A stretch of 64,000 nt of DNA from Candidatus Spongiisociaceae bacterium. GTDB taxonomy: Bacteria; Actinomycetota; Acidimicrobiia; Spongiisociales; Spongiisociaceae. A program made the translations under genes and the position numbers. The notes under the pieces are model-generated. The model had not been told where the DNA came from. It saw only the letters and a program-made list of their open reading frames with translations, and made no database searches. The stretch lies in assembly GCA_965219685.1 (NCBI GenBank), contig CBDCOH010000002.1:2208001-2272000 (forward strand), read 5' to 3'. Numbering within the stretch: the first letter of the stretch is position 1; every line of letters starts with the position of its first letter. Below are positions 21,518 to 47,795 of the stretch, in pieces.

Positions 21518-21608
21518 TAATACATCAGAGGTGAGTAGATACCTACATCAGAGTAGAGGAAATTCCTCCATTAGTGGGAGGTAATCTACTACATTAGGAT
21601 CCCTGCCG
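21518..21608 (+). repeat. 23-bp-period direct repeat array (4 units) upstream of an AAA_14/DUF4143 gene
   Basis: T(A/C)CAT(C/T)AG at 21521, 21544, 21567, 21590. Confidence 0.85.
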
Positions 21609-22898
21609 ATGCTGGGAAAGACACTACCCCGACACGTTTCGGAGCAGATCGACGAGGCCCGGGAGTGGGCACGAGTCACACTGATCCACGGCCCGCGCCA
21701 GGCCGGTAAGACCACGCTCGCCCGCCAGATCAGCCACCGGTTGGACGGGACATTCGCCACGCTCGACGATCCTGCGATGCTGGAAGCAGCACGTAGCGAC
21801 CCGGTGGGCTTCGTCACCCAGCCGACCCCGCTGGTGATCGACGAGATACAGCGAGCCGGGGATCCGCTGGTGATCGCGATCAAGAGGGCGGTCGACCTCG
21901 ATCCGACGCCAGGTCGATTCTTGATCACCGGCTCTACCAATTTCCTCACCGTACCCACCATCTCGGAATCACTGGCCGGGAGGTTGGCGATCATCGAACT
22001 ATGGCCGTTCTCCCAAGGCGAACTTGCCCGTGCCGACCCGGAGACCTTCGTGAACCTCGCCTTCGAACAGCCTGAGGTTCTTCGCGCCGGGCCCCCCGGG
22101 TTGACCACCCGCGATCAGTACTTCGAATCCATCTGTGAGGGCGGCTACCCCGCCCTGACCAACTTCACATCACGGCAGCGCCGAGGCTGGTACGGAAACT
22201 ATCTCCGCACGGTGGTCCAGCGCGACATCGTGGAGTTGGCCGACATCCGCCGTGCCGACTCCATTGCTCCGGTGCTATCCACTGCGGCCGCGCTGACGGG
22301 ACAGGAACTGAACGTGGCTCGTCTCGCACGTGGCGCGGGCATCGATCCGCGTACCGCCGCCGGCTATCTCTCCTGGCTGGCCACCGTGTTCCTGGTACAC
22401 CGCGTGCCGATGTGGTCCCGCAACCTATCCACCAAGCAGGCCAAGTCTGCGACGCTATACGTGGCCGACAGCGGATTGGCGGCCCACCTTGCCGGAAAAG
22501 ACCCGGTGGCCTTGGCCCGACCTACCGACACCTCCGTCGGCGGGCTGGTAGAGACATTCGTGGTCAACGAGGTAGCCAGGCAACTCGGCTGGAACCAGCC
22601 CGAGGCGCGTCTTCACCACTACCGCGACCATCGAGGCCCCGAGGTCGACCTGATACTCGAGGCTCCTGATGGACGTGTCGTGGCCATCGAAGTCAAGGCT
22701 GCAATCTCGCCCGGTCCCGGGACAGCCCACTGGCTGAAATGGTTGCGGGACCGCCTCGATCTCCTGGGCAACGACTTCGTCCACGGCTTCGTTCTCCACA
22801 CCGGCCCGAACCGTGCAAGCCTCGGTGACCGACTCACCCTGCTTCCCATCGAAGCACTATGGAGTCCCGGCTTCCCGAACCAGCAGAAACGGCGGTAG
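21609..22898 (+). CDS. AAA_14 ATPase with DUF4143 and C-terminal PD-(D/E)XK-like domain
   Basis: GPRQAGKTT, IDEIQ, TGS, ESLAGR, GGYP, EVDLILE...AIEVK. Confidence 0.9.
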   Translation: MLGKTLPRHVSEQIDEAREWARVTLIHGPRQAGKTTLARQISHRLDGTFATLDDPAMLEAARSDPVGFVTQPTPLVIDEIQRAGDPLVIAIKRAVDLDPTPGRFLITGSTNFLTVPTISESLAGRLAIIELWPFSQGELARADPETFVNLAFEQPEVLRAGPPGLTTRDQYFESICEGGYPALTNFTSRQRRGWYGNYLRTVVQRDIVELADIRRADSIAPVLSTAAALTGQELNVARLARGAGIDPRTAAGYLSWLATVFLVHRVPMWSRNLSTKQAKSATLYVADSGLAAHLAGKDPVALARPTDTSVGGLVETFVVNEVARQLGWNQPEARLHHYRDHRGPEVDLILEAPDGRVVAIEVKAAISPGPGTAHWLKWLRDRLDLLGNDFVHGFVLHTGPNRASLGDRLTLLPIEALWSPGFPNQQKRR

Positions 22899-22996
22899 AC
22901 GAGCGCCCGCAATCAAAGGGCCATCCTCCGACCGCGTAGCCGCTGCCTCTATCCCCTCTGAGCGCCTACCGACCTCGTGTTCTTGGGCTTCCTCTG

Positions 22997-24094: not shown

Positions 24095-24174
24095 CTTTGT
24101 TGCCTCCCTGGTCTGGATCGAGTGGCTTGCGCAGGGTGCGTCCGGTCCCATCCGGACCCGCCTTGTTGCACTTT

Positions 24175-24212
24175 GCGATATCACTGTCAGCAATATCGCT
24201 CCTGGCAATAAT
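24175..24212. promoter_or_regulatory. tandem palindromic operator candidates in a divergent promoter
   Basis: GCGATAT...ATATCGC overlapping ATATCGCTCCTGGCAATAAT. Confidence 0.5.
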
Positions 24213-24250
24213 ACACTCGGTGTGAACACGCGTAGGAGTGGGGAGCACAT

Positions 24251-25654
24251 ATGAAGGCCGAGCACGACGAGGTTTGCGACCTGTTGCTCACCAACGGGTC
24301 GGTGATCACGGTGGATGACGAGCGACGGGTCCACGAACCGGGATCGGTGGCCATCCGTGGCGACCGGATCCTTGCCGTCGGTCCGCCGAGCGATCTCGAT
24401 CGATACCGCGCGACCAGAGTGATCGATTGCACCGGGAAGGCGGTCCTCCCCGGTTTCGTCGACACCCACACCCACATGTTCCAGAGCCTCGGGCGAGGCC
24501 TGGGCGAGGGCATGCCCCTCTATCCCTGGCTGAGCGACTTCATGTGGCCGTACGCACAGGTGATCAGCCGCCGGGAGGCGTGGGCGGGGGTCAGGTTGAC
24601 GGCACTCGAGGCTGCCAGGGCCGGCACGACCGCCGTGGTAGACGATCACTACGCCCCCACGGACGTCGAGACGACGGTCGGGGTGGCACGGACCATCGAG
24701 GAGGTGGGTTTGCGCGGCGCGGTGGCGCGGGGCATCTTCGGGTCTCCGGCCGAGGTGACGCGCCACTACGACATCCCGGACTACCTGTTCGCTCTGCCGC
24801 CGGAAGAGGAACTCGAGATCACCAGGGCAGCCATCGAAGCCACCTCCGGCCGGAAGGTGGGGGTCTGGCCGGCGCCCGACGGGAACTTCATCGAACGGGG
24901 TCTGATCCTGGATTCGGTGGCCCTCGCCCACGAACTGGACACTCGCTGGCACATCCATTGCTCCGCCCCGCAGTCCGACCCGGATGCCTACGTGTCCTGC
25001 TACGGGGAACGTCCCGTCCACTGGATGAACCGTGCCGGCATCCTCGACGAACGGGCGGCGATCGCCCATGGCGTCTGGTTCGACGACGACGAAGTCTCGG
25101 CCCTGGGCGAGGCAGGCGCCGGTGTCGCCCACTGTCCCACCTCGAACTGTTATATGGCGGACGGCGCCATCCGCATGAACGACCTCCGGTCAGCCGGGGT
25201 GGTCGTATCGCTGGGTACCGACGGATCGGCCTGCGACCACCGCCAGGACATGTTCGAGCAGATGAAGCAGGCCGTATTCGTGCAGAGGCTGCACACCCTC
25301 GACCCCGTTGCGCTGAGGTCGGAAGAAGCGTTGGAGCTGGCCACCCGGGAGGGCGCCCGCTTTCTGGGCATCGACGCAGGCGTACTCGCTCCCGGCAAAC
25401 TCGCCGACATCGCGGTGGTGGATCTCGACCGGGTCCACCTGCAGCCGCTGAATCGCACCATCTCGACGCTCGTCTACGCGGGCCGCGGTTCCGACGTGGT
25501 GATGACGATCGTCGGCGGAGAGGTGATCTACGAGAACGGCGCCTCCACGATGGTGGACGAGGCAGAGGTTATCGCCGAGGCCCGGGCCCGTTCGGCGGAA
25601 TTGATCGAGCGCGCCGGGTTGCACGGCCTGCTCACCCCGTGGAGAAGGCAATAG
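24251..25654 (+). CDS. amidohydrolase (SsnA/MTA-SAH/guanine deaminase-like)
   Basis: PGFVDTHTH, AHGVW, HCPTSN, LGTDG, GKLAD. Confidence 0.9.
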   Translation: MKAEHDEVCDLLLTNGSVITVDDERRVHEPGSVAIRGDRILAVGPPSDLDRYRATRVIDCTGKAVLPGFVDTHTHMFQSLGRGLGEGMPLYPWLSDFMWPYAQVISRREAWAGVRLTALEAARAGTTAVVDDHYAPTDVETTVGVARTIEEVGLRGAVARGIFGSPAEVTRHYDIPDYLFALPPEEELEITRAAIEATSGRKVGVWPAPDGNFIERGLILDSVALAHELDTRWHIHCSAPQSDPDAYVSCYGERPVHWMNRAGILDERAAIAHGVWFDDDEVSALGEAGAGVAHCPTSNCYMADGAIRMNDLRSAGVVVSLGTDGSACDHRQDMFEQMKQAVFVQRLHTLDPVALRSEEALELATREGARFLGIDAGVLAPGKLADIAVVDLDRVHLQPLNRTISTLVYAGRGSDVVMTIVGGEVIYENGASTMVDEAEVIAEARARSAELIERAGLHGLLTPWRRQ

Positions 25655-25775
25655 CACGGGGGGAACCGGCAGGGGCAAGGCCGGGTCGGGGCGACCAAGA
25701 CCTGCCTAAGCCGGATCGAAGCGGCCGTAGCCCGATTCGAGACGGGATGGAGCACCGCGGCGGAGGCCCATCCGA

Positions 25776-27830: not shown

Positions 27831-27864
27831 CAACTGGCAACTGGCAACTGGCAACTGGCAACTA
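27831..27864. repeat. heptamer tandem repeat (CAACTGG)x4 plus a partial unit
   Basis: caactggcaactggcaactggcaactggcaacta abutting the SDR stop codon. Confidence 0.9.
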
Positions 27865-33138: not shown

Positions 33139-34377
33139 TTGACCGCGTACTCGCCCGCTTCTTCGCTCGGGTGGCTTGACTTCGATGCCGCCGCGGCAGA
33201 TCGTGTCGCGCGACTATTGCACGCCCTCCGGGAGCCCGCAACGCTCGATGTCCTGGGCCTGGGATCAGTTGTCACCACCCTCTCCAACATGCTGCATCCC
33301 GGCACTTCGTACATACACACGAACCTGCGCTACCTGATGTTCGTGCCTTGGATACTCCAGCGCCTCGAAGCGGAGCGGGTTGCTCCGGGAGACTTCTCCC
33401 GGCGCCTTCGCCACGACGAAGCCCGGCTAATCGACTGCCTGCGGCATCTGGGACCGGGTCAGGGGGTGATCGGGTACCGGGCTGGTAGAAACTTGAAGCG
33501 GATGCCCAGCAGCATCTATTGGGGATCCCTCCGGGAATGGGGATTGAGACGAGTCTCGCTCAGCCTGGGCGAGTATGCGCAGCGTGCAGCCGCGATGGGC
33601 CGGTACCGGGCTGGGCGCGATGACGACGGCAACGTGACGGACCCGGACCGTTCGATATGGGTGGCGCTTCCGCCTCCCCCAGAGGGCTTTCTCCGAGACA
33701 AGATCGACTTCGAGCTGCAACCCGAGGAAGCGCGCACCCTCGTCGACAACATCCAGCGCAAGAGTCCACCGACGCTCATCTCGTCGCTGTGCGGCAAGCC
33801 GGAGATCGCCGCCGAATGCACGTACCCGTGGGACGTGCCCCAGACCAACCTGCCGCCACAGGTCGCCGAGGTACTGCGCCATGCCCGCTGCTTCTCGGAG
33901 TTGACCACCGGCTCGCAACACGCATACAACATCCTGGTCGCGCGCCGGGCCCACCAGGAACTCGATTGGGAAACCGAGGAAGTCGAACAGGCCCAACTCG
34001 GTCACCTAAGCGAGTGGGTCGAACTGGTCGGGAGTCGCCGCGACGAACTTCGCGCATGGGTCGATGACCTCCCGTCGTTCTGGGAGGTCCTTCGCAGGAA
34101 CCGCAGGAGTTCGATAAGACATGGAACACGAAACTTTGTAGCCACGATCGCGGAACTGGCGGTCAACAATCCTGAGGGGTTCGAGCACAACGAGGACGTC
34201 CACAAGGTGATCAGCCGTCGTGAGATCCGGCTGAAGTCGAATCGGGCCCGCCTGGGGAGTCGCGCCGCGCTGGAGAACTGGCACGGATCCCCCGTCGGTG
34301 GCCGGCACACCTACCGATGGTCCGTCGCCAAGGCCTACCTCGGCGAGATCGCGGACGCGCGGCGGACCGGCGCGTAA
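33139..34377 (+). CDS. DUF6361-like protein (first gene of a putative Azaca-like defence operon)
   Basis: LGWLDF, DVLGLGSV...LHPGTSYIHTNLRY, LKRMPSSIYWGSLREWG, YRWS. Confidence 0.7.
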   Translation: MTAYSPASSLGWLDFDAAAADRVARLLHALREPATLDVLGLGSVVTTLSNMLHPGTSYIHTNLRYLMFVPWILQRLEAERVAPGDFSRRLRHDEARLIDCLRHLGPGQGVIGYRAGRNLKRMPSSIYWGSLREWGLRRVSLSLGEYAQRAAAMGRYRAGRDDDGNVTDPDRSIWVALPPPPEGFLRDKIDFELQPEEARTLVDNIQRKSPPTLISSLCGKPEIAAECTYPWDVPQTNLPPQVAEVLRHARCFSELTTGSQHAYNILVARRAHQELDWETEEVEQAQLGHLSEWVELVGSRRDELRAWVDDLPSFWEVLRRNRRSSIRHGTRNFVATIAELAVNNPEGFEHNEDVHKVISRREIRLKSNRARLGSRAALENWHGSPVGGRHTYRWSVAKAYLGEIADARRTGA

Positions 34378-36215
34378 TGCTCCAACCGACGAACCGGCTA
34401 ACGCTCATCAATGCGATGCGTCCGCCGGCCGCGTTCCGGCTCGAATCAGCCATGGCGGTCACGTACACGCTCAACCTGTCGGCACTCCTCGCGGCGCCGG
34501 CCGCATTCGCAATTGCGAGCGTGGGCAACACCACGACCGATGCTGACCTCCAGACCCCTGTGGAGTTGGTCCACGCGCTCCGGACCAACGCCCACAAGCT
34601 CACCGTCTTCAGCGAGGCAGGCGAGATCAGCCTCCCACCGGCCAGCCGAGCCTTTGCCTTCCTAGAACGAGCCGTGGTACCCGTCCGCGCGCCGCGCGGA
34701 GGAATCGTCCATCCCAAGGTGTGGGTGCTGCGCTACGAGGCCTCCGCTGATCTGGAGGAGGTCAGCAAGGGTGACCACCGGCTCCGTGTGATCATCACCA
34801 GTCGCAACCTCACCTTCGATCCGAGCTGGGACACAGTACTGAGACTCGACGAGTCGGCAGATTCGCAGGGTGTAGAGCTCGGCGCGGTTGGTGAACTGTT
34901 CGAGGGACTGCTCGGCGCCGCAGTCGGTGAAATCTCCTCGGATCACTCCGATCGGGTACGTTCGCTGGCCGGAGCGCTGCGGACGGCGCGGTTCGCGCTC
35001 CCCGCCGGGGTCGATGACCTCAGGATTCACGTGTTCGGCCTCACCGCTCAGGACTCACCTCTGCCAACCGAGGTGGACCGGTCGCTGATCATCTCGCCAT
35101 TCGTGACCGACGGCTTCTTCTCCAGGCTGGGTCCACGACCGCTTGATGAACTCGTCAGCCGCCAAGGTGAGCTCGACAAGTTGGCCAAGAGCACGCTTGA
35201 TCCCATCAAGAAGGTCTGGGTCCTGGACAGTACCCTCGACGACCTCAGCGTCTCCGACACCGGCGATGCGCCTGACGACCAGGCGCGACCGCAGTACTCA
35301 CCGTCTGACCCCGGCCGGCCGCTGGTCGGGCTTCACGCCAAGGTCTTCGCCTTCGAACACGACGGTAGTGCCCGGCTGTTCGTCGGATCGGCCAATGCCA
35401 CAGGCCCTGCTTTCAATAGCAGCAACGTCGAGATCCTGGCTGAACTACGCGGGCCGCTTGCCGAGTTGGGAATCGGCCGGCTAACAGAGGGGAACGGGGA
35501 CGAGCCCGGCCTGCGCGATCTATTCGATTGTTACCGCCGCAACTGTCCGGTCCCTCCGAACGGTGACGGCTGTCACAAGCTCGATCCTGCTCGCCGCGCC
35601 ATCGCTCGCCTCCTGTTCAAGGGTTCGGCGGAGAAGAGCGGAGAGGACTGGGCCGTGACGTACTACTCGTCCGAGCCCGTCCCCAAGATCAAGGAAGTCG
35701 AGATCTGCTGCCGGCCGCTCACCAAAGCCGGGGATCGGCGCCGGATCGCACCGGCAGAGCGACTCGAGGAACGCTTCGAGACCAGCCTCGAACGCATGAG
35801 CGGCTTCCTCGCCTTCGAGCTGAGCCATCACTGCGGCGAGCAAACCGGTTTCGTGGTACCCGTGGCTCTCGAAGGTGTTCCCGAACATCGAGACCAGCAC
35901 CTGCTGAAGTTGCTCATCGGTAACGCCGAGCGCTTCCTCCGCTATCTCCTAGCCCTCCTCTACGAGGACTCGCCCCAAGTCGATATCGTCACCGTGATGC
36001 GCGCCATCGACACCGGACAATCAGCCGGTACCAGCGCGTTCAGCCTCGCAGTTCTGGAACGGCTGCTGGGAACCATGCGCCGCGACCCATCGAGGCTTCT
36101 CGGACTGCATCCACTCGTCACCGACCTCAAGGCCGACGACGCCCTTCCAGAGGGTTTCGCCAGACTCTGGGACGCGATTCACAAGGTTGCGGAAGAGGGA
36201 GCCGGTACGCGATGA
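34377..36215 (+). CDS. phospholipase D-family nuclease-like protein
   Basis: TAATG coupling; HPKVW and LHAKVF...GSANAT motifs; IISPF. Confidence 0.8.
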   Translation: MLQPTNRLTLINAMRPPAAFRLESAMAVTYTLNLSALLAAPAAFAIASVGNTTTDADLQTPVELVHALRTNAHKLTVFSEAGEISLPPASRAFAFLERAVVPVRAPRGGIVHPKVWVLRYEASADLEEVSKGDHRLRVIITSRNLTFDPSWDTVLRLDESADSQGVELGAVGELFEGLLGAAVGEISSDHSDRVRSLAGALRTARFALPAGVDDLRIHVFGLTAQDSPLPTEVDRSLIISPFVTDGFFSRLGPRPLDELVSRQGELDKLAKSTLDPIKKVWVLDSTLDDLSVSDTGDAPDDQARPQYSPSDPGRPLVGLHAKVFAFEHDGSARLFVGSANATGPAFNSSNVEILAELRGPLAELGIGRLTEGNGDEPGLRDLFDCYRRNCPVPPNGDGCHKLDPARRAIARLLFKGSAEKSGEDWAVTYYSSEPVPKIKEVEICCRPLTKAGDRRRIAPAERLEERFETSLERMSGFLAFELSHHCGEQTGFVVPVALEGVPEHRDQHLLKLLIGNAERFLRYLLALLYEDSPQVDIVTVMRAIDTGQSAGTSAFSLAVLERLLGTMRRDPSRLLGLHPLVTDLKADDALPEGFARLWDAIHKVAEEGAGTR

Positions 36216-39200
36216 CCGAGCCTCGCATCGATGTCGCCGCTACGTTGGCAGACCTGAAGGACTTCCAGCAATGCACGGCAAAGTGGGCGTTCAAGCGGAT
36301 GTTCAAGGATAACGATCCGGCGTTACGATTCCTGGTGGCGGACGAGGTCGGCCTCGGCAAGACACATGTGGCCAAGGGCGTAATCGCGCAGGTCATCGAC
36401 CATCTGGGGAGCATCGACGATGAACGCCACGACATTGTGTATGTCTGTTCGAACGGGGCGATCGCCCGACAGAACCTCAGGAAGCTCGCCCCCAAGGGCA
36501 TCAACCCCACCATCGTCGGTGTTGACCGGCTGACCATGCTCCCTCTAGTCGAACTCGACAGCGGAAGAGACGGGCAACCCGGCATCAACCTGTTGGCGAT
36601 CACCCCCGGCACGTCCTTCAAGTTCGGACTCAGCACCGGCAAGTTCACGGAACGCGCCCTCGCCTACGCGTTGTTACGCAGGGCCTGGGGCCCTGAGGTC
36701 ATGAACAAGAGAGCCCGCCACATCTTCTGGTTTGGCCTCACAAAGGGCAGTCCCGCCGACCGGGACAGGCGACTCCAGCGGTGGGGGGAGCACTTCCGCG
36801 ATCGGGTCAGAGTGTCGCGCGAGGAGTTCAATACCCGTTTGGCCCGGGTTGACAGGGAGAGGCGAGGAACCGGCAACCCACCATTGCGACAAGTGTTCGC
36901 CGAACTCGTGGACCGCCTCCGGGTTGAACCTACCTTCACCGGCCGCACCTGGTGGTTGCGGCGACATCTGATCGCGGAGGTGCGCCGGGTCATGGCGCTG
37001 GTCGGTATTGATGCGCTCCGGCCCGATCTGGTGGTACTCGACGAGTTCCAGCGTTTCAAGGACCTGATGCGACCCGATGCCGACGATCTCGCCGGAGAGC
37101 TTGCACAGGGTCTCTTCAACTACCGCGACCCCGAGACCGGGAGGCCGACTCGGACCCTGTTGCTCTCGGCCACTCCCTACCGCATGTACACGACGGCCGA
37201 CGACGCCGACGCCGACCATTACAAGGACTTCCTGGACACCTGCAAGTTCCTCTACCAGGATGCCGAGCGTGTCGAAGGACTGAGACGTCGTTTCGCCGGT
37301 CTTCGCGATGCACTCACCGCGTCGGCTGTGCTCGACGACACCGAGGCGCCGCTGGCTAACGCGGCGCGCATCTGCCACGAGATCGGGTCGGACCTGCGGC
37401 AGGTCATGGCCCGTACCGAGCGGCTGGCTGCTACCCCGGACCGGGACGGGATGCTCGAGGAGCCCACCGTTCCCGTGGCGGTCGCGCCCGACGACATCCG
37501 CTCGTACCTACGCATCGGCGACCTCGCGCAAATCGTCAGCCACCACGATCCCACCGAGTACTGGAAGTCCGCCCCGTACCTGGTGAACTTCATGGAGCAC
37601 TACAAGCTCAAGCAGGCTATAGAGGGAGCTGTCGCGGAGGGCCTATTGGTCGAGGACGGGAGGCTCGACCCGGGTCCCGGCCTGTTGAGTTGGGAGGATG
37701 TGGAGCGTTACCAGCGCGTCGACCCCCAGAACGGGCGGCTTCGATGGCTAACAGACGACCTCGAAGCCTCCCGTGCCTTCGAGCTTCTGTGGGTCCCACC
37801 ATCGATTCGCTACTACGAGACCGGATCGGTCTACGAATCTGCAGAGGCACGCCGGTTCACCAAGCGCCTGATCTTCTCCGGTTGGCGGGTCGTGCCGAAG
37901 GTCGTCTCGTCGCTGGTCAGTTTCGAAGCCGAGCGCCGTGCCTTCGCGAGCCGTGAGCACGGTTACTCGGCCCGGTACCGGCAGCGTGGCGGCCAGCGCC
38001 TCACGTTCCGAACCAGCGAGAGGACAGCCGCGGAGACTCGTGCCGGTGAGTCTTCAGCCGAGCGTCGCGCCGCCTCGATGACGACATTCCTGCTCGTGTG
38101 GCCAAGCCTCAGTCTCGCTGAGGTGGGTGACCCGCGAGCGCTGCAATCCGAACGACGGGATCGCGATTCCGTGATCGCCACAATCTCAGCGCGAGTGGAA
38201 GCGGCTCTTGAGCCACTCGCTCGCTCGGCACCCTCCGAGGGACCGGTCGATCGGCGCTGGTACTGGGCCGCCCCGCTGCTGTTTGATCACCAGCGTCACC
38301 GTACGGTTGTCGACCGGCTGCTATCCGACCGGTCGGCAGGGCTCTGGGAGGGCGATAGGGCCGACGTGAACTTCCGGGCGCATCTCGCCGAGGCCCGAGC
38401 CATGGTCGAGTACGGGCCGACAGCCCTCGGACGGCGTCCCGAGGACCTCTACGAGGTGCTGGCCGAACTGGCGCTCGGTGGGCCGGCGCAGTGTGCGCTC
38501 CGGGCGGTCAACTCGGTCGTGGGGCTTCCCGCCGCTCATGAGTCGGTGCTGTCGAGCGCGATCCGAATCGGTGAGGCCTTCAGGAGCTTCTTCAACGCCC
38601 CGGAGGTGACAGCGTTAGTCACTGCCGCTCGATCGGAGCGACCCGGCTCCGAGGGAGGCGTTGCCCGGTACTGGCGTGAGGTCGTGGGTCATTCGATCGA
38701 CGGGAACCTGCAGGCCTTGCTGGACGAGCACGCTCACATCCTGCGCGACTGGCTCGGCTACGTCAGCCTCGACGGCGCAGAGCAGCGAACCAAGGCCGCC
38801 GGTGGCATCGCCTCCACGATCGGTGATGCGCTGAGGCTCCGGACCTCTGCGCTGCGGGTGGACATCCCTCGCCGCAGCGATCACGATGACGGCATCGAAC
38901 TGGAGGATCACCGCATGCGCTCTCGCTTCGCGGTGGCTTTCGGCGATCAGGTGCTCGACGAGGGAGGCCAAGCCCGGGTGGGCGCCGTGTCGGTGGCTTT
39001 CAACTCACCCTTCTGGCCGTTCGTTTTGACCTCGACCTCGGTCGGGCAGGAAGGACTGGACTTCCACCTGTGGTGCCATGCGGTGGTGCACTGGAACCTT
39101 CCCGCCAATCCCGTCGATCTCGAGCAGCGTGAAGGCCGAGTCCATCGGTACAAGTGTCACGCGGTCCGTCGCAACATCGCTGAGAAGCTCGGATCCGATC

Positions 39201-39565
39201 TGGTGAAAGACGGGACACCGGAAAGCGATCCGTGGCAGGCGCTCTTCGAGCGGGCGGCATCCGAGAGGGAACCCGACGACGGGGAGATGGTGCCCTACTG
39301 GGTGTTCCATCAGGGCCGGGCGAAGATCGACCGCCTCGTTCCGGTGCTTCCGTTCAGCCGCGAGTCGGCGAGACTTCCCAGGTTGCGGAAGTCCCTCGCC
39401 GTCTATCGCCTCGCCTTCGGCCAGCCCCGCCAGGAGGAATTGGTCGAGTTCCTAGGCGACCGCATCAGCCCCGAGCAGTTGCAGCGCTGGCTCTCGCAAC
39501 TTCGCATCGACCTGTCGCCCCCGAACGTGCCGGAGCATTTACCAAGCGGGGTTTCAGAAGCTTGA
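36212..39565 (+). CDS. SF2 (SNF2/DEAD-like) helicase
   Basis: ADEVGLGKT, DEFQ, LSATP, SVGQEGLDFH, EQREGRVHR; ATGA coupling. Confidence 0.9.
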   Translation: MTEPRIDVAATLADLKDFQQCTAKWAFKRMFKDNDPALRFLVADEVGLGKTHVAKGVIAQVIDHLGSIDDERHDIVYVCSNGAIARQNLRKLAPKGINPTIVGVDRLTMLPLVELDSGRDGQPGINLLAITPGTSFKFGLSTGKFTERALAYALLRRAWGPEVMNKRARHIFWFGLTKGSPADRDRRLQRWGEHFRDRVRVSREEFNTRLARVDRERRGTGNPPLRQVFAELVDRLRVEPTFTGRTWWLRRHLIAEVRRVMALVGIDALRPDLVVLDEFQRFKDLMRPDADDLAGELAQGLFNYRDPETGRPTRTLLLSATPYRMYTTADDADADHYKDFLDTCKFLYQDAERVEGLRRRFAGLRDALTASAVLDDTEAPLANAARICHEIGSDLRQVMARTERLAATPDRDGMLEEPTVPVAVAPDDIRSYLRIGDLAQIVSHHDPTEYWKSAPYLVNFMEHYKLKQAIEGAVAEGLLVEDGRLDPGPGLLSWEDVERYQRVDPQNGRLRWLTDDLEASRAFELLWVPPSIRYYETGSVYESAEARRFTKRLIFSGWRVVPKVVSSLVSFEAERRAFASREHGYSARYRQRGGQRLTFRTSERTAAETRAGESSAERRAASMTTFLLVWPSLSLAEVGDPRALQSERRDRDSVIATISARVEAALEPLARSAPSEGPVDRRWYWAAPLLFDHQRHRTVVDRLLSDRSAGLWEGDRADVNFRAHLAEARAMVEYGPTALGRRPEDLYEVLAELALGGPAQCALRAVNSVVGLPAAHESVLSSAIRIGEAFRSFFNAPEVTALVTAARSERPGSEGGVARYWREVVGHSIDGNLQALLDEHAHILRDWLGYVSLDGAEQRTKAAGGIASTIGDALRLRTSALRVDIPRRSDHDDGIELEDHRMRSRFAVAFGDQVLDEGGQARVGAVSVAFNSPFWPFVLTSTSVGQEGLDFHLWCHAVVHWNLPANPVDLEQREGRVHRYKCHAVRRNIAEKLGSDLVKDGTPESDPWQALFERAASEREPDDGEMVPYWVFHQGRAKIDRLVPVLPFSRESARLPRLRKSLAVYRLAFGQPRQEELVEFLGDRISPEQLQRWLSQLRIDLSPPNVPEHLPSGVSEA

Positions 39566-40855
39566 TAATGCGTGTGTTGACTCATCCGGACTGGCCCGGG
39601 TCCACAGGCGGTCTACCGGCAGGGCGATGATGCTGGCGTCTGCGCCCTTGTAGCGAATGCAGTGAGGACCCGTGTACAGCACCACACCGACCATGAACCG
39701 ATCACCGAGGGTGTCGCGCAACATGCGTAGGCCGCGCCGGTCCTTCGGGTAGATCCTCGAACCGGCCTTCACTTCGATACCGACCACCGAGCCGTCCCGA
39801 CCGTTCTCCATCACGACATCCACCTCGGCGCCGTCGTGCGTTCGCCAGTGTCCGACGTGAGGCCGGTGCTCCATCCAGGACGCCTGCTTGAGGATCTCGC
39901 CCACGACGAAAGTCTCAAGCAGATGCCCGAACTGTTGCAGGGCCGCCGGATCCAGAGCCGACAACTTGTCGGGCGGGAGGCGGAGCAACCGGGCAGCCAG
40001 ACCAGAGTCCGTGATGTGCAGTTTGGGACGCGAGCTGGTCGCCGACCGTAGCGTCCTTCCCCAGGCAGGCAGCAGGCGCACCAGGAATCCGGACTCGAAC
40101 AGCTTTACGTAGTCGGATGTGGTGCTGGCAGCCAGTCCTACCGCCCGGCCGGCGCTCGACATGTTGAGAACCTGAGCCGTCTGCGACGCCAAGCGCGCGA
40201 GTAGTTGCGCAAGCGCCGCAGGCTGCCTCACGCGACCCTCCTCCAGGAGATCACGTTCCAGGCAGAGAGCCAGGTAGTCATCGAACCAGCGAGCCCGCGC
40301 CGGCCCGGTGCGCGCCAACGCCAACGGGAACCCGCCCCTTGTGACGAGGTCCACATACTCGTCCCGTGTGGTTGCCGACGGGTCCGGTGAGACGATCGAA
40401 CCAGGATCATCCAGTAGCGCCTCGACCATATTCTCCCTCTCCCCGCCGATCTCCCCTTGGGATAGCGGAAGGATCTCCAGCCGGTGCAGGCGGCCGGTCA
40501 GCGACTGCGCAGCGAGGGGTAAGGAGTCGAAACGAGTGGAACCTGCGAGTACAAACCGGCCCGGAGACCCGTCGAGGTTCAACTCGGCCTTGATCGAGTC
40601 CAGCAGGACGGGGACATGCTGGTACTCATCGATGAACACCGGTCCGCGGCCTGCGACGAACAGCCCGGGATCGTCGCTGACCGCCGCCCGAACTGCCGGA
40701 TCGTCGAAATCCACCACACGCCCGCCGTACCGGTCAGCCAGTATCCGCAGCAGCGTGGACTTGCCGACGGAGCGCGGACCCTCGAGCAACACCACCGGCG
40801 ACTCGGCCATACGACAAACGACGATATCCTCCAGCCGCCGAGGGACCAACTCCAC
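39554..40855 (-). CDS. AAA_14/DUF4143 ATPase-nuclease
   Basis: GPRSVGKST, IDEYQ, QSLTGR, GGFP, EVDVVME...GIEVK. Confidence 0.9.
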   Translation of the reverse strand: MELVPRRLEDIVVCRMAESPVVLLEGPRSVGKSTLLRILADRYGGRVVDFDDPAVRAAVSDDPGLFVAGRGPVFIDEYQHVPVLLDSIKAELNLDGSPGRFVLAGSTRFDSLPLAAQSLTGRLHRLEILPLSQGEIGGERENMVEALLDDPGSIVSPDPSATTRDEYVDLVTRGGFPLALARTGPARARWFDDYLALCLERDLLEEGRVRQPAALAQLLARLASQTAQVLNMSSAGRAVGLAASTTSDYVKLFESGFLVRLLPAWGRTLRSATSSRPKLHITDSGLAARLLRLPPDKLSALDPAALQQFGHLLETFVVGEILKQASWMEHRPHVGHWRTHDGAEVDVVMENGRDGSVVGIEVKAGSRIYPKDRRGLRMLRDTLGDRFMVGVVLYTGPHCIRYKGADASIIALPVDRLWTRASPDESTHALSSF

Positions 40856-40865: not shown

Positions 40866-40957
40866 CCTTCCGTGAATCTCCCAGTTATTCTACCGTGAAA
40901 TACATGGCCTTTCTACCGGTATACTCAGGAATGATCTGCCGTGACTTCCAAGTACTC
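40866..40957 (-). repeat. 23-bp-period direct repeat array (4 units) upstream of an AAA_14/DUF4143 gene
   Basis: CCTTCCGTGA 40866, TCTACCGTGA 40889, TCTACCGGTA 40912, TCTGCCGTGA 40935. Confidence 0.8.
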
Positions 40958-41073: not shown

Positions 41074-42357
41074 TCACTCCCACAAGAGGGAGATCGGGGC
41101 GGCCCATATGCGATCGCTGATCTCGATGACCGGGGAGCCGGAGTAGAGGATCACACCAAGGTCGAACTTGGGGAACCACCTCCGTTGGTCGGCGTCCATC
41201 CGGTCGCGCAACCACTGCAGATGACGGGCGTCACGGCGGGTGACGGCACTCGACGCCTTGACCTCGACTGCGATCAGGCTGCGGTCACGGCGGTTCTCCA
41301 CCAACAGGTCGACCTCTCGTTTCGCTTGGTCCCGGTAGTGGTAGAGGGCGTAGTCGTGGCCGGATGCGTCCCGCTGAGCCCGTAGTTGCGACACGACGAA
41401 GGTCTCCATGAGGTTCCCGACGAGCTTGGAGTCGGCACGCACGTCTTCAGGGCCCACCCCCAGCATCGCGGCCCACATTCCCGCATCGTTGACGAACCGC
41501 TTTGACCGCTTACCGATACGGCTCGAGATCGTCCGATGCCAAGCCGGAACCTGTGAGACCACGTACGAGTTGTGCAGAGCCTGTTCGTACTTCTCGGCCG
41601 AGACCCGCGAGATGTCGGAGCGCTCTGCCAGCGTGGTCTGGTTGATCATCTCCGACGAGTTGGCAGCGTACACGTACAGGAAGTCGAGCATCTTCCGATG
41701 GTCGATGCGTCCGGTCGCGGCGTCCAGCCGCACGATGTCGCGCAGGGCGCCTTCCATCTGCTTCCGCCGGCGCGGGTGGTCCGCGACCCTCAGGTAGGCC
41801 GGATAGCCGCCCTCCAAGGCTATGTCGATGTAGTCGTACAGGCCGAGTGTTCGGGCCGGCGCGGAGGCCCGACGAATATCGGCGAGCCGATCCACGAAGG
41901 AGTGGAGCGGATTGCGGCGCTTCTCCGCCACCGTCAGCGGATGCATCTCCAGGGTGACCCCGCGGTGCACGAGCGGCCATTGATTGCTGTCATCGCGATC
42001 GTTCGGACGGATACGAGAAGAGCCGGCGATGACGAACCCCTTCATCGAGTCCTGATCGACCAGCTTCTTCACCACCCAGAGCACATCCGGGACCTGCTGC
42101 CATTCGTCGAGCAGGACGGGCTTCTTCGCGCCCCGCAAGGCAGCCTCCATGTCCAGCACGAACGCCGAGCGCTGTTGAGGCTGCGACAGGTCGATTGCGG
42201 ATTCGACCACCCGCAGGGCGGTGGTCGTCTTGCCGACGCCGCGCGGTCCGGTGATCACTACCGCCGGCCAGGTATCTAGTTCGGCGCGAAGCCTCGCGTC
42301 GATGCGCCTCGGCAGGTAGCCGGAAGGACCGGAGCGATCAGAGTGACGGCGGCGCAT
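41074..42357 (-). CDS. AAA_14/DUF4143 ATPase-nuclease
   Basis: GPRGVGKTT, LDEWQ, AGS, GGYP, EVDLLVE...AVEVK. Confidence 0.9.
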   Translation of the reverse strand: MRRRHSDRSGPSGYLPRRIDARLRAELDTWPAVVITGPRGVGKTTTALRVVESAIDLSQPQQRSAFVLDMEAALRGAKKPVLLDEWQQVPDVLWVVKKLVDQDSMKGFVIAGSSRIRPNDRDDSNQWPLVHRGVTLEMHPLTVAEKRRNPLHSFVDRLADIRRASAPARTLGLYDYIDIALEGGYPAYLRVADHPRRRKQMEGALRDIVRLDAATGRIDHRKMLDFLYVYAANSSEMINQTTLAERSDISRVSAEKYEQALHNSYVVSQVPAWHRTISSRIGKRSKRFVNDAGMWAAMLGVGPEDVRADSKLVGNLMETFVVSQLRAQRDASGHDYALYHYRDQAKREVDLLVENRRDRSLIAVEVKASSAVTRRDARHLQWLRDRMDADQRRWFPKFDLGVILYSGSPVIEISDRIWAAPISLLWE

Positions 42358-42425: not shown

Positions 42426-42494
42426 ATCGTATACAGATCGGACCTGATAACCTAGGCAGATTGAACTATCTATCGTATGCAGATTGTCGCGTCG
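42426..42494 (-). repeat. 23-bp-period direct repeat array (3 clear units) upstream of an AAA_14/DUF4143 gene
   Basis: ATCGTATACAGATCG 42426, AACCTAGGCAGATTG 42449, ATCGTATGCAGATTG 42472. Confidence 0.8.
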
Positions 42495-43468: not shown

Positions 43469-43548
43469 TTTGTGTTGACAGGATAAGAACCGGCACGGAT
43501 AGTTCTTGCCAACCGGACACTAAATAGTTATTGTCATAACGGAATAAA
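43469..43548. promoter_or_regulatory. two imperfect NrtR-box-like sites in a divergent promoter
   Basis: TTTGTGTTGACAGGATAAGAA and TTATTGTCATAACGGAATAAA. Confidence 0.45.
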
Positions 43549-43621
43549 CCTGTGCCTGCGGCGTTGTACCTGATACGGGGCCGTTTGCGCACCCGAGCCA
43601 CCCCTGACCGAAGGAGATACA

Positions 43622-45235: not shown

Positions 45236-45296
45236 ACAGGAGGAACGAACCGGCGGGCGGTGGGTGAGTGCCTGGCTCACCGCTCGCCCGGAAGGA

Positions 45297-45893: not shown

Positions 45894-46015
45894 AGCCCGA
45901 TGCTACCGCCCGGAAGGGCTTGTCTTGAGTCGACAGCAGGCGCGCGGACCGGGACGGTGGAGCCCTAGCGCCATCGGGTAAGCCACGAGCCTGAGATAGC
46001 GGATTCGACCAAGGC

Positions 46016-47740
46016 TCACAACCCGCCGGATAGGGCATCAATTCGCCTCACGATATGCAAGGCGATCATCGCGCTTGCTCGATCTACATCCGGACTGCGG
46101 GATTCAACTTCGGAATAGTCCAAGCTGAGATCGAGATCGGGGATCGGTTTCTCGTCGATTGTCACTGTTCGAGACCAACCTTCACCTCTGAATTCCCACT
46201 TAATAGATAGAATGATACTGAACCCTGTTTTCCCGGTGCCCGTATAATCAATCAACCTGTAGTCCTGCCTCACTTCGACCTGCTGGTCGTCATTCAGCTC
46301 GAATCCTCGTGATATAATGTGATGTTCTTTTGTATTCTCCCAGTTCCTCGGTTCCAGAAGAGCCATAGAACTGGTTTGCTGATGTCGGTAGCTAATGTAG
46401 CCGGTCTGTCCAAAGGTACGAAACAGCCCCTTCGCCATATTGCTGACTGTTAGTTCCAATCCATCAAGCAACGGACGAATAAATGTATAGAAGACGTTAT
46501 CCAGTATCTCGATACCTAAGGTATCCGGCTCCGGTCCTCTACGTCTTTCGATAAACTCCGCTATCTCCCGTTCCGTGTCTAGTCGCTGAAGTAGCCCAGC
46601 TAGATCAGCCAAAGGCACTACTTCATAGTTGCTCCGCGATTGACGTGTCGTACCTCCGTAGACAACTGCCTTCATAGAGACATTTGGAACAAGGTCCGTG
46701 ACGCGATCCAGGGAACGAGAGTAGTCCGACGTGATGGTAGAACCGGACTTGACCTCAATAGCATAGATACCGTCACCGGTTTCATAGAAGAGGTCACACT
46801 CCAAGCCCTTCGAATCACGAAAAAAGGAGAGGTTGGAGTCGTAGCTTCGATTGAAACGGTACTTGAGGGCCTCAGCCACGACCGTATTCTCGAAAAGGGC
46901 GCCGCGTAGCGGATGAGTAGCTATCTGGTCGGCGTCTTCGATACCGATTAGATAGCTAGCGAGTCCGACATCATAGAAATAGAGTTTTGGTGATCTGATC
47001 AACCTCTTACGGATATTGGCGTGAAATGGTCGTAGCTGGAAGGCTATGTAACTCCTTTCCAGAACAGTCAGCCATGCTCGTGCCGTGGTGTGCGACACTC
47101 CTGCATCCGAACCCAGCGAACTGAGGTTGAGCAATTGGCCGACCCGTCCGGCGCAGAGCCGGACGAAGAGACGGAAACTCGACAGGTTACGTATCTCGCC
47201 TAGCCGGCGAACATCGCGCTCGACGTAGGTCTCGTAGTAGTCACGGAGGCTCTGGCGCGGGTCGAGTCTTCGATCATGAATCCGGGGATAGAAACCCGAG
47301 AAGAGGATATCGTCTACCGCGTTGCTCGCGCCTGTTCTTCTTCGTTCCGATAGGGAGAACGGCAACAGACGCAGGAGTGCTGTTCGACCAGCCAACGACT
47401 GGCTGACGGAGTCGGAGAGTCGGAACTGCTCGCTGCCGGTGAGTACAAACAGACCGCTTCGACCGCTCTCGTCGGCTAGGACCTGCAGATACGATAGGAG
47501 CTTCGGTACGTACTGTATCTCGTCGATGACCGCAGCCCCGTTGAACTGCGCAAGAAAGCCCCGAGGGTCGGCCTCGGCGAAGTCCCTCACGTCGGGAGCC
47601 TCCAGATTGGCGTATTCCAGATCAGGAAAGGCCGCTCTACACAGGGTTGTCTTGCCGGACTGCCTTGGCCCCGTAACTGTCACGAAGGGATATTGTCGGA
47701 ACAGCGCGGTCAGATGACCGGTGATTTCCCTCTCGATCAT
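46016..47740 (-). CDS. AAA_14/DUF4143 ATPase-nuclease with a long C-terminal extension
   Basis: GPRQSGKTT, IDEIQ, QSLAGR, YVERD, SPKLYFYDVGL, ECDL...AIEVKS. Confidence 0.9.
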   Translation of the reverse strand: MIEREITGHLTALFRQYPFVTVTGPRQSGKTTLCRAAFPDLEYANLEAPDVRDFAEADPRGFLAQFNGAAVIDEIQYVPKLLSYLQVLADESGRSGLFVLTGSEQFRLSDSVSQSLAGRTALLRLLPFSLSERRRTGASNAVDDILFSGFYPRIHDRRLDPRQSLRDYYETYVERDVRRLGEIRNLSSFRLFVRLCAGRVGQLLNLSSLGSDAGVSHTTARAWLTVLERSYIAFQLRPFHANIRKRLIRSPKLYFYDVGLASYLIGIEDADQIATHPLRGALFENTVVAEALKYRFNRSYDSNLSFFRDSKGLECDLFYETGDGIYAIEVKSGSTITSDYSRSLDRVTDLVPNVSMKAVVYGGTTRQSRSNYEVVPLADLAGLLQRLDTEREIAEFIERRRGPEPDTLGIEILDNVFYTFIRPLLDGLELTVSNMAKGLFRTFGQTGYISYRHQQTSSMALLEPRNWENTKEHHIISRGFELNDDQQVEVRQDYRLIDYTGTGKTGFSIILSIKWEFRGEGWSRTVTIDEKPIPDLDLSLDYSEVESRSPDVDRASAMIALHIVRRIDALSGGL

Positions 47741-47760
47741 GCGTACAGGCTACCAATCCT

Positions 47761-47795
47761 GGTACACATTGCAAGTAGTACTTTCAATGTGTACC
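47761..47795. promoter_or_regulatory. 35-bp near-perfect palindrome upstream of an AAA_14/DUF4143 gene
   Basis: GGTACACATTG-C-AAGTA-G-TACTT-T-CAATGTGTACC. Confidence 0.75.

What the first reader, a model, noticed from the sequence alone, without database searches (positions are those of the whole stretch)
21518..47795. AAA_14/DUF4143 ATPase-nuclease genes each carry a private upstream array with an exact 23-bp period
Seen: four solo AAA_14/DUF4143 genes (Walker A/B, GGxP in three, C-terminal E.D...E.K nuclease-like motif). Three are preceded by 3-4 short direct repeats spaced exactly 23 bp apart. The cores differ completely between paralogs (TACATYAG; TCTACCGTGA; ATCGTATGCAGAT), and the intervening 10-15 bp vary. 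The fourth gene has a palindrome with arms 24 bp apart. A conserved period with divergent sequence at three independent loci is unlikely to be chance. Known: the family's function is largely uncharacterised; AAA+/winged-helix initiators (Orc1/Cdc6) and plasmid Rep proteins bind phased repeats, and iterons typically have 21-22 bp periods. Inference: each protein polymerises on its own cognate array, either for autorepression or as a self-licensing checkpoint for the nuclease, giving a one-gene-plus-array defence or selfish module with co-evolving specificity. An alternative is that the arrays are transcribed into tiny repeat-spacer RNAs. I know of no description of this architecture.
Basis: partly seen in the sequence, partly recalled or inferred. 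Interest (0 to 1): 0.9.

Follow-up and report, generated by a model that had tools for sequence, protein, structure and literature searches.

The report
Phased 23-bp operator arrays before defence-candidate ATPases
A very common but untested candidate phage-defence gene (an ATPase fused to a DNA-binding domain and a nuclease) carries, just before its start, its own private row of short repeats spaced exactly 23 bases apart, in bacteria and archaea alike, which most likely marks where the protein binds its own promoter.

Summary

**In the window**
- All four genes are AAA_14+DUF4143.
- Three have 3-4 direct repeats at exactly 23 bp. The fourth has a 35-bp palindrome.

**In the genome**
- Eight of 19 family genes have a lag-23 array at the threshold used.
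- At that threshold, 9 of the 22 lag-23 peaks on the chromosome lie in the 0.2% of sequence at family 5' ends. Other lags give none there, apart from one at lag 22.

**Across loci**
- In 89 non-redundant upstream regions, 35 reach the lag-23 threshold. The controls gave 0 of 89 downstream regions, 0 of 88 far-upstream regions and 0 of 890 shuffles.
- The period recurs in other Actinomycetota, an Acidobacteriota genome and an archaeon.
- Other protein clades use periods of 22, 24 or 32 bp, or palindromes.
- Orthologues keep the core and the register while the spacers drift.

**Protein**
- The family is PADLOC's candidate defence gene PDC-S01.
- Its predicted fold is AAA+, lid, winged helix and PD-(D/E)xK nuclease.

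**Reading**
- The arrays are most likely cognate, iteron-like operators bound head-to-tail by each gene's own product, giving autorepression. Binding was not shown here.
- My literature searches found no description of these arrays.

The parts
21609..22898 (+). Gene A, AAA_14 + DUF4143 (PDC-S01), 429 aa
   Evidence: Pfam. PADLOC PDLC04790, E 6e-144. Model pLDDT 93.9.
21521..21597 (+). Array A: four units TACATYAG / TCCATTAG starting at 21521, 21544, 21567 and 21590, at period 23. The last unit reads TAGGAT 8 nt before the ATG.
   Evidence: The lag-23 score is 30 of 46.
39554..40855 (-). Gene B, AAA_14 + DUF4143 (PDC-S01), 433 aa, GTG start
40866..40944 (-). Array B: four units TCACGGYAGA-like. 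The cores CGGYAGA / CGGAAGG start at 40941, 40918, 40895 and 40872, at period 23.
   Evidence: 27 of 46.
41074..42357 (-). Gene C, AAA_14 + DUF4143 (PDC-S01), 427 aa
42426..42484 (-). Array C: three units ATCTGYMTAsGwT starting at 42484, 42461 and 42438, at period 23. Degenerate units follow towards the ATG.
   Evidence: ruler re-check.
46016..47740 (-). Gene D, AAA_14 + DUF4143 (PDC-S01), 574 aa, with a C-terminal extension of about 240 aa that has no Pfam match
47761..47795 (.). 35-bp palindrome (17+1+17, one mismatch), 20 nt upstream of the ATG of gene D. Its inner part, ATTGAAAGTA / TACTTTCAAT, is shared by the D clade.
33139..39565 (+). Context: three genes matching the PADLOC models ZacA, ZacB and ZacC. 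They lie directly upstream of (convergent with) genes B and C.
   Evidence: DUF6361.

Best explanation
Each array is the cognate operator of the gene that follows it.

The gene product has four predicted parts: an AAA+ ATPase, a lid, a winged helix-turn-helix and a PD-(D/E)xK nuclease domain. In this model the winged helix reads one unit of about 17 conserved bases. Most units have an A-tract, then a paralogue-specific core, usually ending in TAG.

Neighbouring protomers would sit head-to-tail. The protein's own geometry would then fix the register at 23 bp. In other clades the register is 22, 24 or 32 bp, or a palindrome is bound head-to-head.

The array ends at or over the promoter or start region. 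In the A clade the last unit supplies a TAGNNT -10-like hexamer 6-8 nt before the start codon, which suggests a leaderless transcript. Occupancy would therefore shut off the gene's own transcription. That would keep a potentially dangerous nuclease at a low, buffered level until the protein is drawn away or changes nucleotide state.

**Shown here:** the arrays, their period, their restriction to family 5' ends, core conservation against spacer drift, the link between clade and operator type, and the domain architecture.

**Inferred:** that the product itself binds, the head-to-tail assembly, repression rather than activation, and the leaderless promoter.
For: **1. Specific place.**
- 35 of 89 non-redundant upstream regions reach at least 26 of 46 matches at lag 23. 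Lag 22 gives 5, lag 24 gives 4, and every other lag from 10 to 40 gives 0-1.
- Controls at lag 23: 0 of 89 regions downstream of the same genes, 0 of 88 at -620..-420, and 0 of 890 dinucleotide shuffles.
- In the window's genome, 9 of 22 lag-23 peaks fall in 0.216% of the chromosome.

**2. The period is conserved across very distant hosts.**
- Nonomuraea, Nocardia, Planomonospora and Pseudonocardiales.
- A Vicinamibacterales genome (L100, L127) and a Methanomethylophilaceae archaeon (L111, L116, L119).
- The archaeal cases argue against an explanation from bacterial -35/-10 spacing.

**3. Footprint.**
- Eleven A-clade orthologues (71-86% protein identity) align without gaps over 92 nt.
- Mean column conservation is 0.70-0.86 in the six core phases and 0.36-0.48 in the six spacer phases.

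**4. Cis-trans linkage.**
- Cores differ between paralogues at 30-36% identity.
- The array moves with the gene into different local contexts. Homology to L036 restarts exactly at the first unit, 21521.
- On a tree of 128 proteins, the lag-23 arrays fill one large clade, while palindromes and lag-32 arrays sit in others.

**5. Shared frame.**
- 26 motif-distinct arrays align circularly to TAG-N10-AAAW.
- Information content is 6.96 bits, against 5.34 +/- 0.15 (maximum 5.63) for 60 column-permuted nulls.

**6. The protein has a DNA-reading module.**
- The model has pLDDT 93.9. Helices 216-228, 236-243 and 247-259 plus a beta wing form a winged helix between the AAA+ and nuclease parts.
- The nearest solved folds are the archaeal AAA+ SSO1545 (2fna), RuvB, RFC and ORC.

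**7. Position.** In 7 of 11 A-clade genes the last TAG ends 9-11 nt before the start codon, and in all 7 it reads TAGNNT.

**8. No wider regulon.** Cores are neither enriched nor depleted elsewhere in the genome.
Against: - No binding, footprint, transcription start or expression data exist for any member. No RNA run was listed for this organism.
- The residues that are conserved within motif groups but differ between them peak at 207-219 and 234-244, at the edge of the winged helix. The presumed recognition helix 247-259 scores only average, 0.41 against 0.40 overall.
- With orientation left free, only 19 of 26 arrays take the common frame in gene sense. Gene C's array is one of the 7 that do not fit.
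- Some arrays lie far from my called start: about -60 to -115 for gene C, and -110 to -194 for the paralogue at 1720503 on the reverse strand. There the repression geometry is unclear, or my start codons are wrong.
- 45 of 128 genes show neither a supra-threshold array nor a palindrome by my rules. Several of these are two-unit arrays just below the threshold.
- 23 bp is 2.2 helical turns, so successive units face different sides of straight B-DNA. A simple one-face repressor stack does not predict that.
Confidence: 0.6

Rival explanations
1. The arrays are bound by the gene's own product, but their main role is not repression. They would be a loading or nucleation platform: an ATP-dependent filament or ring assembles there and then acts elsewhere. 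Alternatively, they are a self-copy of the kind of phased repeats (iterons, origin or packaging repeats) that the nuclease seeks in invading replicons.
For: - The architecture matches iterons: a conserved block of about 17 bp, a spacer of about 6 bp, a period of 22-24 bp and 3-6 units.
- The fold is AAA+ plus winged helix, as in origin-binding initiators. ORC and RuvB are among the fold neighbours.
- There are more units (up to 6 in L022) than occluding a promoter would need.
- A 23-bp off-helical phase fits a helical wrap better than a flat stack (inference).
- Viral contigs contain perfect 23-bp tandem arrays with the same core and an adjacent A-tract. One lies inside an ORF with a weak HTH_36 match next to RecT, like a phage origin.
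Against: - The viral hits are about what chance would give among 23-bp tandem repeats (my rough estimate, not computed). They come from AT-rich contigs unrelated to this host, and no family gene was found in the three loci.
- The arrays sit tightly against the start codon in most genes. That is what an operator needs and a loading site does not.
- 12-33 genes per genome cannot all be origins.
Confidence: 0.17
2. The arrays are bound by some other factor common to all of them, such as a host regulator or nucleoid protein, or they are promoter elements read by RNA polymerase. The gene product would not be involved.
For: - A frame is shared by most arrays: A-tract, about 7 bases, then TAG.
- TAGNNT resembles the actinobacterial -10 hexamer. 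That consensus is recalled, not taken from a call.
Against: - The best-conserved positions are paralogue-specific, for example CTACATYAG against CACGGTAGA against CCTGTAGGAT, and they are kept among orthologues.
- The same period occurs in an archaeon, whose transcription machinery differs.
- No lag-23 arrays occur at other 5' ends in the genome beyond the background rate.
- Operator type follows the family's own phylogeny.
Confidence: 0.1
3. The arrays are the end or recombination sites of a small mobile module, made up of phased binding sites for a transposase or integrase, and the ATPase gene is its cargo or helper.
For: - Array plus gene is found as a compact unit of about 1.34 kb in differing local contexts (L033, L034 and L036 compared with the window).
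- The family is multicopy: 12-33 copies in this genus, and 20 in a 1.4-Mb archaeon.
- Plasmid-borne copies sit next to IS elements.
Against: - Repeats occur at one end only; no second array was seen downstream (0 of 89).
- Paralogues within a genome are only 30-36% identical, so there has been no recent transposition.
- No transposase or integrase is part of the module.
- The rearrangements seen stay within one variable neighbourhood of about 10 kb.
Confidence: 0.05
4. The arrays are transcribed into small repeat-spacer RNAs.
For: The arrays have a repeat-spacer appearance, and nothing excludes transcription through them.
Against: - Units of 8-17 nt with spacers of 6-15 nt are far shorter than in any CRISPR-like array.
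- There is no Rfam match in the window other than one tRNA.
- Fold z-scores are -0.84, -2.34 and +1.41 for arrays A, B and C, so there is no consistent structure.
- In orthologues the 'spacers' drift neutrally rather than turning over.
Confidence: 0.03

Closest known systems
PDC-S01, single-gene phage defence candidate in PADLOC (Pfam AAA_14 + DUF4143; COG1373)
   Same: - All four window proteins match PDLC04790 end to end, with E-values from 6e-144 to 3e-92.
- The ATPase plus PD-(D/E)xK architecture is as described for PDC-S01 in PMC12988326 (passages read).
- The genes lie next to other defence-type genes, ZacABC.
   Different: - The papers I could read say nothing about an upstream element. 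These were passages of 10.1101/2024.01.29.577857, PMC12988326, 10.1101/2024.09.26.614923 and PMC3424549.
- Defence activity is unproven. One PDC-S01 coding sequence, cloned without its native upstream region, was not among the four candidates that protected E. coli B against T7, T5 or T4.
Iterons and Rep initiators of theta-replicating plasmids, and lambda-type origins
   Same: - Direct repeats have a conserved block, a short variable spacer and a period of 22-24 bp, with 3-6 copies beside the gene of the protein presumed to bind them.
- The family shows both direct-repeat and inverted-repeat operators. In Rep systems these correspond to monomer and dimer binding; that detail is recalled, not taken from a call.
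   Different: - The protein is an AAA+ ATPase with a nuclease domain, not a Rep_3 / WH1-WH2 initiator.
- There are at least 8 such arrays on one chromosome.
- I did not look for a DnaA box or an unwinding element.
Orc1/Cdc6 with origin recognition boxes; RuvB; the archaeal 'Arch_ATPase' SSO1545 (2fna)
   Same: The order AAA+ core, lid, C-terminal winged helix is shared. These are the best structural neighbours (2fna E 1.4e-06, RuvB 1e-05, human ORC 3e-05).
   Different: - TM-scores are low (0.22-0.39 on the query), and there is no sequence-level match to any solved structure.
- This family has an extra PD-(D/E)xK domain.
- Its repeats are direct and phased at 23 bp, rather than boxes flanking an unwinding element.
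Autoregulated defence and restriction controllers (C proteins with C-boxes; BrxR/CapW-type repressors)
   Same: An operator sits immediately upstream of a defence-type gene. The palindromic clade (gene D) looks like a classical dimer operator.
   Different: - Regulator and effector are one polypeptide here.
- The operator is a phased direct-repeat array in the largest clade.

Membership tests
Pfam AAA_14 + DUF4143 (COG1373) | Matches to PF13173 and PF13635 above the curated cut-offs | tested here: met
   all four genes match. DUF4143 scores 126-165 bits (cut-off 28.1) and AAA_14 scores 53-87 bits (cut-off 27).
Pfam AAA_14 + DUF4143 (COG1373) | Walker A and B motifs and a PD-(D/E)xK catalytic motif | tested here: met
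   G28, G33, K34, D78, E79, D347 and E361 are invariant in 66 sequences. K363 and E345 are conserved in at least 90%.
PADLOC PDC-S01 | Full-length match to a PDC-S01 model as a single gene | tested here: met
   PDLC04790 covers about 410 of 422 profile positions in each of the four proteins.
PADLOC PDC-S01 | Protection against phage | not testable with these tools
   The only test I found used a coding sequence alone, and that candidate was not among those that protected.
Iteron-type replication origin | 3-7 direct repeats of 17-22 bp at a period of about 22 bp beside the initiator gene | tested here: met
   3-6 units, a conserved block of about 17 bp, and a period of 23.
Iteron-type replication origin | Rep-type (winged-helix pair) initiator | tested here: not met
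   the protein is AAA+, winged helix and nuclease, with no Rep family match.
Iteron-type replication origin | Adjacent AT-rich unwinding element and DnaA boxes; one origin per replicon | not tested
   I did not search for these. Eight arrays on one chromosome make an origin role implausible, by inference.
CRISPR array | Repeats of 23-47 bp with unique spacers of similar length, and cas genes | tested here: not met
   conserved cores are 8-17 bp and spacers 6-15 bp. Spacers are orthologous and drift rather than turning over. No cas genes were looked for.
Orc1/Cdc6-type initiator | AAA+ with a C-terminal winged helix as the last domain, and sequence membership | tested here: not met
   One search gives no Cdc6/ORC Pfam match. 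One search gives only a fold-level neighbour (TM 0.22). A nuclease domain follows the winged helix.

The most novel reading that the evidence does not exclude
Array and gene form an obligatory two-part module. The PDC-S01 protein would be a sequence-programmed recogniser of phased repeats: an Orc/Cdc6-like AAA+ protein with a nuclease that assembles only on rows of its cognate unit at a 23-bp register.

The chromosomal array would then be both its off-switch and a template of what it attacks, namely iteron-like origin or packaging repeats of invading plasmids and phages. A genome with 12-33 paralogues would hold a panel of such specificities.

This reading would also explain why a coding sequence alone gave no protection.
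Probability: 0.1. Interest if true: 0.9.

Novelty: new variant of a known kind. Interest (0 to 1): 0.66.

Why it matters
PDC-S01 is reported as the fourth most common defence candidate in prokaryotes, with about 39,000 instances counted in one survey (PMC12988326, passages). Its function is still unknown.

A conserved private cis element with a fixed 23-bp register, found from Actinomycetota to archaea, has four consequences.
1. The protein is probably a sequence-specific DNA binder whose specificity diversifies between paralogues.
2. It gives an immediate handle for biochemistry: a cognate DNA for gel shifts, footprints and cryo-EM of an AAA+ assembly on DNA.
3. Tests using the coding sequence alone may miss the system's regulation or even its activity.
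4. The arrays are a cheap genomic marker, and a natural set of orthogonal protein-operator pairs.

Standard tandem-repeat finders miss the arrays, which may be why they have gone unnoticed.

Tried and rejected
**Searches and jobs that gave nothing**
- RNA evidence: no RNA holder was listed for window:39400-42800. Read laying was therefore not used, because contigs cannot show a transcript start.
- Complex prediction with two copies of protein A (alignment A3) returned 'no answer', score 0.00. It is neither for nor against self-association.
- Sequence search of solved structures found nothing below E 0.07.
- Rfam found only one tRNA in the window.

**Ideas rejected**
- Period 23 equals a -35 hexamer plus a 17-bp spacer. 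I considered this and rejected it as the cause, because the same period occurs in an archaeon.
- A wider regulon, or self-avoidance of the cores, is not supported. Observed counts are close to mononucleotide expectation, for example TACATYAG at 65 against 73.7.

**Inconclusive**
- Residue-level specificity mapping: the top windows are at 207-219 and 234-244, and the presumed recognition helix is only average.
- Search for the A core at a 23-bp register in viral contigs: three contigs with perfect tandem arrays were found, with no family gene in the fetched loci. I treat this as a lead only.

**Literature**
- Searches for DUF4143, COG1373, AAA_14/PF13173/PF13635, PDC-S01, guilt-by-embedding, '23-bp + direct repeats + AAA+ + autoregulat', and PDC-S01/iteron/operator combinations found no description of the arrays.
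The supplementary tables of 10.1101/2024.01.29.577857 and PMC12988326 might bear on PDC-S01 details.

**Rows dropped**
- 103 upstream regions were reduced to 89 by removing those at least 85% identical over the last 120 nt.
- 35 arrays were reduced to 26 by removing six A-clade orthologues and L020, L076 and L072.
- Loci whose N-terminus or 200-bp upstream stretch was missing were skipped (listed).
- Of the 20 PF13635 matches in the genome, I examined 16 upstream regions by eye and 19 HMM hits.
- Start codons were chosen by a simple rule (nearest to the profile start), and some are probably wrong.

**My own error**
I corrected this in note 4 and in this report.

Full report
**What is there**

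The window lies in a 4.39-Mb chromosome of 65% G+C. Its nearest named relatives are uncultured Acidimicrobiia from sponge-type samples, with record titles such as Candidatus Spongiisocius, Spongiisociaceae, Poriferisodalis and Aldehydirespiratoraceae.

Four genes in the flagged span carry AAA_14 and DUF4143:
- A: 21609-22898 (+)
- B: 39554-40855 (-)
- C: 41074-42357 (-)
- D: 46016-47740 (-)

They are 29-36% identical to each other. All four share Walker A GPRxxGKT, Walker B DE, and an E.D ... E.K nuclease motif. GGxP is present in A, B and C only.

- A has TACATCAG, TACATCAG, TCCATTAG and TACATTAG starting at 21521, 21544, 21567 and 21590.
- B has CGGCAGA, CGGTAGA, CGGTAGA and CGGAAGG starting at 40941, 40918, 40895 and 40872 on its own strand.
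- C has three 13-mers starting at 42484, 42461 and 42438.
- Every interval is exactly 23 bp.
- D has a 35-bp palindrome at 47761-47795.

**Is it more than chance?**

The same genome has about 19-20 family genes. Printing 220 bp upstream of 16 of them shows further arrays at period 23 in at least five paralogues elsewhere on the chromosome. Each has its own core, for example CCTGTAGGAT, GGAGTATAGAAT, TTTGATACA or GTACTA.

A genome-wide autocorrelation (46-bp window, at least 27 matches) gives 22 peaks at lag 23.
- Nine of them, in 8 genes, fall in the 0.216% of the chromosome around family 5' ends.
- Ten other lags tested give 5-15 peaks each. None is near the family, apart from one at lag 22.
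- An earlier, stricter scan gave 7 of 12.

I then collected upstream regions from three sources: relatives (30 loci), a protein-guided scan of one genome per species (67 loci, 57 usable) and the genome itself. After removing near-duplicates, 89 regions remained.
- Lag 23 is the top lag in 42.5 of them.
- It reaches 26 of 46 matches in 35 regions. Lag 22 does so in 5, lag 24 in 4, and every other lag in 0-1.
- The same statistic at lag 23 gives 0 of 89 downstream of the same genes, 0 of 88 at -620..-420, and 0 of 890 dinucleotide shuffles.

Many of these loci are related, so the counts are not independent events. Even so, at least 26 clearly different cores are involved.

**How far does it reach?**

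Arrays at period 23 occur before homologues in:
- Nonomuraea, Nocardia, Planomonospora and Pseudonocardiales;
- a Vicinamibacterales genome with 22 family matches;
- a 1.4-Mb Methanomethylophilaceae archaeon with 20 matches (L100, L127, L111, L116, L119).

Other periods also occur.
- Period 22 goes with an AATTGGACG core. It is found in a paralogue of this genome and in L026. It is also found on plasmids of Agrobacterium and Rhodoferax.
- Period 24 occurs in L049, L050 and L052.
- Period 32 occurs in a deep-branching group: L107, L123, L126 and L112.

Many genes instead have a palindrome of 25-40 bp against the start codon.
- This includes gene D's clade, with a shared ATTGAAAGTA half-site.
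- It also includes a Vicinamibacterales clade and several Chlamydiota and Pseudomonadota genes.

On a tree of 128 proteins, the lag-23 arrays (45, plus four each at lags 22 and 24) fill one large clade. That clade includes the archaeal and acidobacterial members. The 26 palindromes and the 4 lag-32 arrays sit in other clades. Forty-five genes score 'none' by my thresholds, and several of those are two-unit arrays just below the threshold. The period is therefore a heritable property of protein clades.

**What the units look like**

Stacking the arrays in rows of 23 shows a conserved block of about 17 bp and a variable spacer of about 6 bp.

Eleven A-clade orthologues (71-86% protein identity) align without a single gap over 92 nt.
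- Conservation is 0.70-0.86 in the CAYTAG core phases.
- It is intermediate over a GGAAAW block.
- It is 0.36-0.48 in the spacer.
- This is a phylogenetic footprint. The cores are under selection, the spacers are not, and the register is never broken.

Twenty-six motif-distinct arrays can be brought into one circular frame, TAG-N10-AAAW. Its information content is 6.96 bits, against 5.34 +/- 0.15 for column-permuted controls. With strand left free, 19 of 26 take it in gene sense. So most arrays share a bipartite geometry, with an A-tract one helical turn from a TAG. The bases between them differ by paralogue.

**Position**

In 7 of 11 A-clade genes, the last TAG ends 9-11 nt before the start codon.
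- In all seven it reads TAGNNT there, whereas in gene A's own array no internal unit does.
- There is no Shine-Dalgarno-like stretch in between.
- Taking the actinobacterial -10 consensus as TANNNT, and given the frequency of leaderless mRNAs in that phylum (both recalled, not from a call), the last unit would be the -10 element of a leaderless promoter.
- In gene B, the third unit carries TAGAAT and the fourth overlaps a GGAAGGG stretch 9 nt before the GTG.

**The protein**

PADLOC places all four proteins in PDC-S01, with E-values down to 6e-144. PDC-S01 is a single-gene 'phage defence candidate'. It was proposed because homologues are embedded in BREX, DISARM and type I R-M loci (10.1101/2024.01.29.577857, passages).

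From the papers I could read:
- A survey calls PDC-S01 the fourth most common defence candidate in prokaryotes and notes the ATPase plus PD-(D/E)xK architecture (PMC12988326, passages).
- One PDC-S01 coding sequence was tested in E. coli B. It was not among the four candidates that protected against T7, T5 or T4, and only coding sequences were cloned (10.1101/2024.09.26.614923, passages).
- DUF4143 is listed as a PD-(D/E)XK family of unknown function (PMC3424549, passage).

No solved structure matches by sequence.

An AlphaFold2 model built on 66 sequences has pLDDT 93.9. It shows:
- an AAA+ core;
- a helical lid;
- a winged helix (helices 216-228, 236-243 and 247-259, plus a beta wing);
- a PD-(D/E)xK domain with E345, D347, E361 and K363.

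The nearest solved folds are the archaeal AAA+ SSO1545, RuvB, RFC and ORC. In the window, genes B and C follow three genes that match PADLOC's ZacA, ZacB and ZacC models.

**How it most likely works**

The simplest reading that fits all of this is as follows.
- Each array is the cognate operator of the adjacent gene.
- It is read unit by unit by the protein's winged helix.
- Protomers are arranged head-to-tail, so that protein geometry sets the 23-bp register.
- Occupancy of the promoter-proximal units shuts off transcription.

Palindromic clades would bind head-to-head. I put about 0.6 on cognate binding with autorepression.

Several facts could mean the array is more than an operator:
- the off-helical phase (2.2 turns);
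- up to six units;
- the AAA+ plus winged-helix fold shared with origin binders;
- the strong formal likeness to iterons.

That rival (about 0.17) and its bolder form (the protein targets phased repeats of invading replicons) cannot be excluded. A scan of viral contigs for the A core at 23-bp register found three perfect tandem arrays. One lies in an ORF with a weak HTH_36 match next to RecT. I judge this close to the chance expectation for tandem repeats, and it is only a lead.

The other rivals fare worse.
- A common foreign factor or plain promoter elements are disfavoured by the paralogue-specific conservation and by the archaeal cases.
- Mobile-element ends are disfavoured by the one-sided arrays and the deep divergence of the paralogues.
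- Small RNAs have no support.

**Mobility and context**

Array plus gene behaves as a compact unit.
- In L036, homology to the window resumes exactly at the first unit (21521).
- In L033 and L034, the orthologue sits beside the homologue of the gene at 27865, rather than in its window position.
- These changes stay inside one variable neighbourhood and do not show transposition.

**Novelty**

The gene family and its candidate defence role are known. The cis element is not described in anything I could search (supplements were not available). By this I mean the private phased arrays, the clade-specific period, the bipartite frame and the reach across both domains.

I rate it a new variant of a known kind, namely iteron-like or direct-repeat operators for a winged-helix protein. 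Its interest is raised by how common the family is, and by the fact that it now has a defined DNA ligand to test.

L012 comes from an unpublished genome (G016). It is one row in several counts, and no claim depends on it.

Noticed in passing
window 27831-27863, and genome-wide on C2: (CAACTGG)x4.7 directly abuts the ATG at 27865. The chromosome has about 362 dispersed heptanucleotide tandem-repeat loci, with units such as CATTCAC, CACCACT, CACCAGC and GAATAGT. They show up as peaks at lags 14, 21, 28 and 35.
   Followed up: partly
window 33139-39565: Three genes match the PADLOC models ZacA (DUF6361), ZacB and ZacC. ZacC is 1117 aa and has a helicase C-terminal region similar to DrmD, DpdE and BrxH. 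The cluster lies directly beside family genes B and C.
   Followed up: no
window 46016-46740 (C-terminal part of gene D): Gene D has a C-terminal extension of about 240 aa with no Pfam match. A relative, L005, also has a 577-aa frame. The surrounding 2 kb is only 54.5% G+C, against about 65% elsewhere.
   Followed up: partly
window 24251-25654, 30632-32101, 47811-49205: Three amidohydrolase (Amidohydro_1) paralogues lie within 25 kb, interleaved with the family genes.
   Followed up: no
L133 2911-3033 and L134 3337-3390 (IMG/VR contigs): Both contigs have perfect 23-bp tandem arrays of CGTACATCAGAYMTACGAAAAAA, with up to about 8 units. In L133 the array lies inside an ORF that has a weak HTH_36 match and sits next to a RecT gene, which looks like a phage replication origin within its initiator gene.
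   Followed up: partly
G021 (genome of L082): A 1.4-Mb Methanomethylophilaceae archaeon has 20 DUF4143 matches. A 2.0-Mb Simkaniaceae genome has 11. These are large expansions for such small genomes.
   Followed up: no
L129 (Agrobacterium tumefaciens plasmid), G000 paralogue at reverse-strand 3035271, and L026: The same unit core, TCCGAATTGGACG, at period 22 stands before family genes in an alphaproteobacterial plasmid and in Acidimicrobiia chromosomes. This suggests that gene and array were transferred together.
   Followed up: partly
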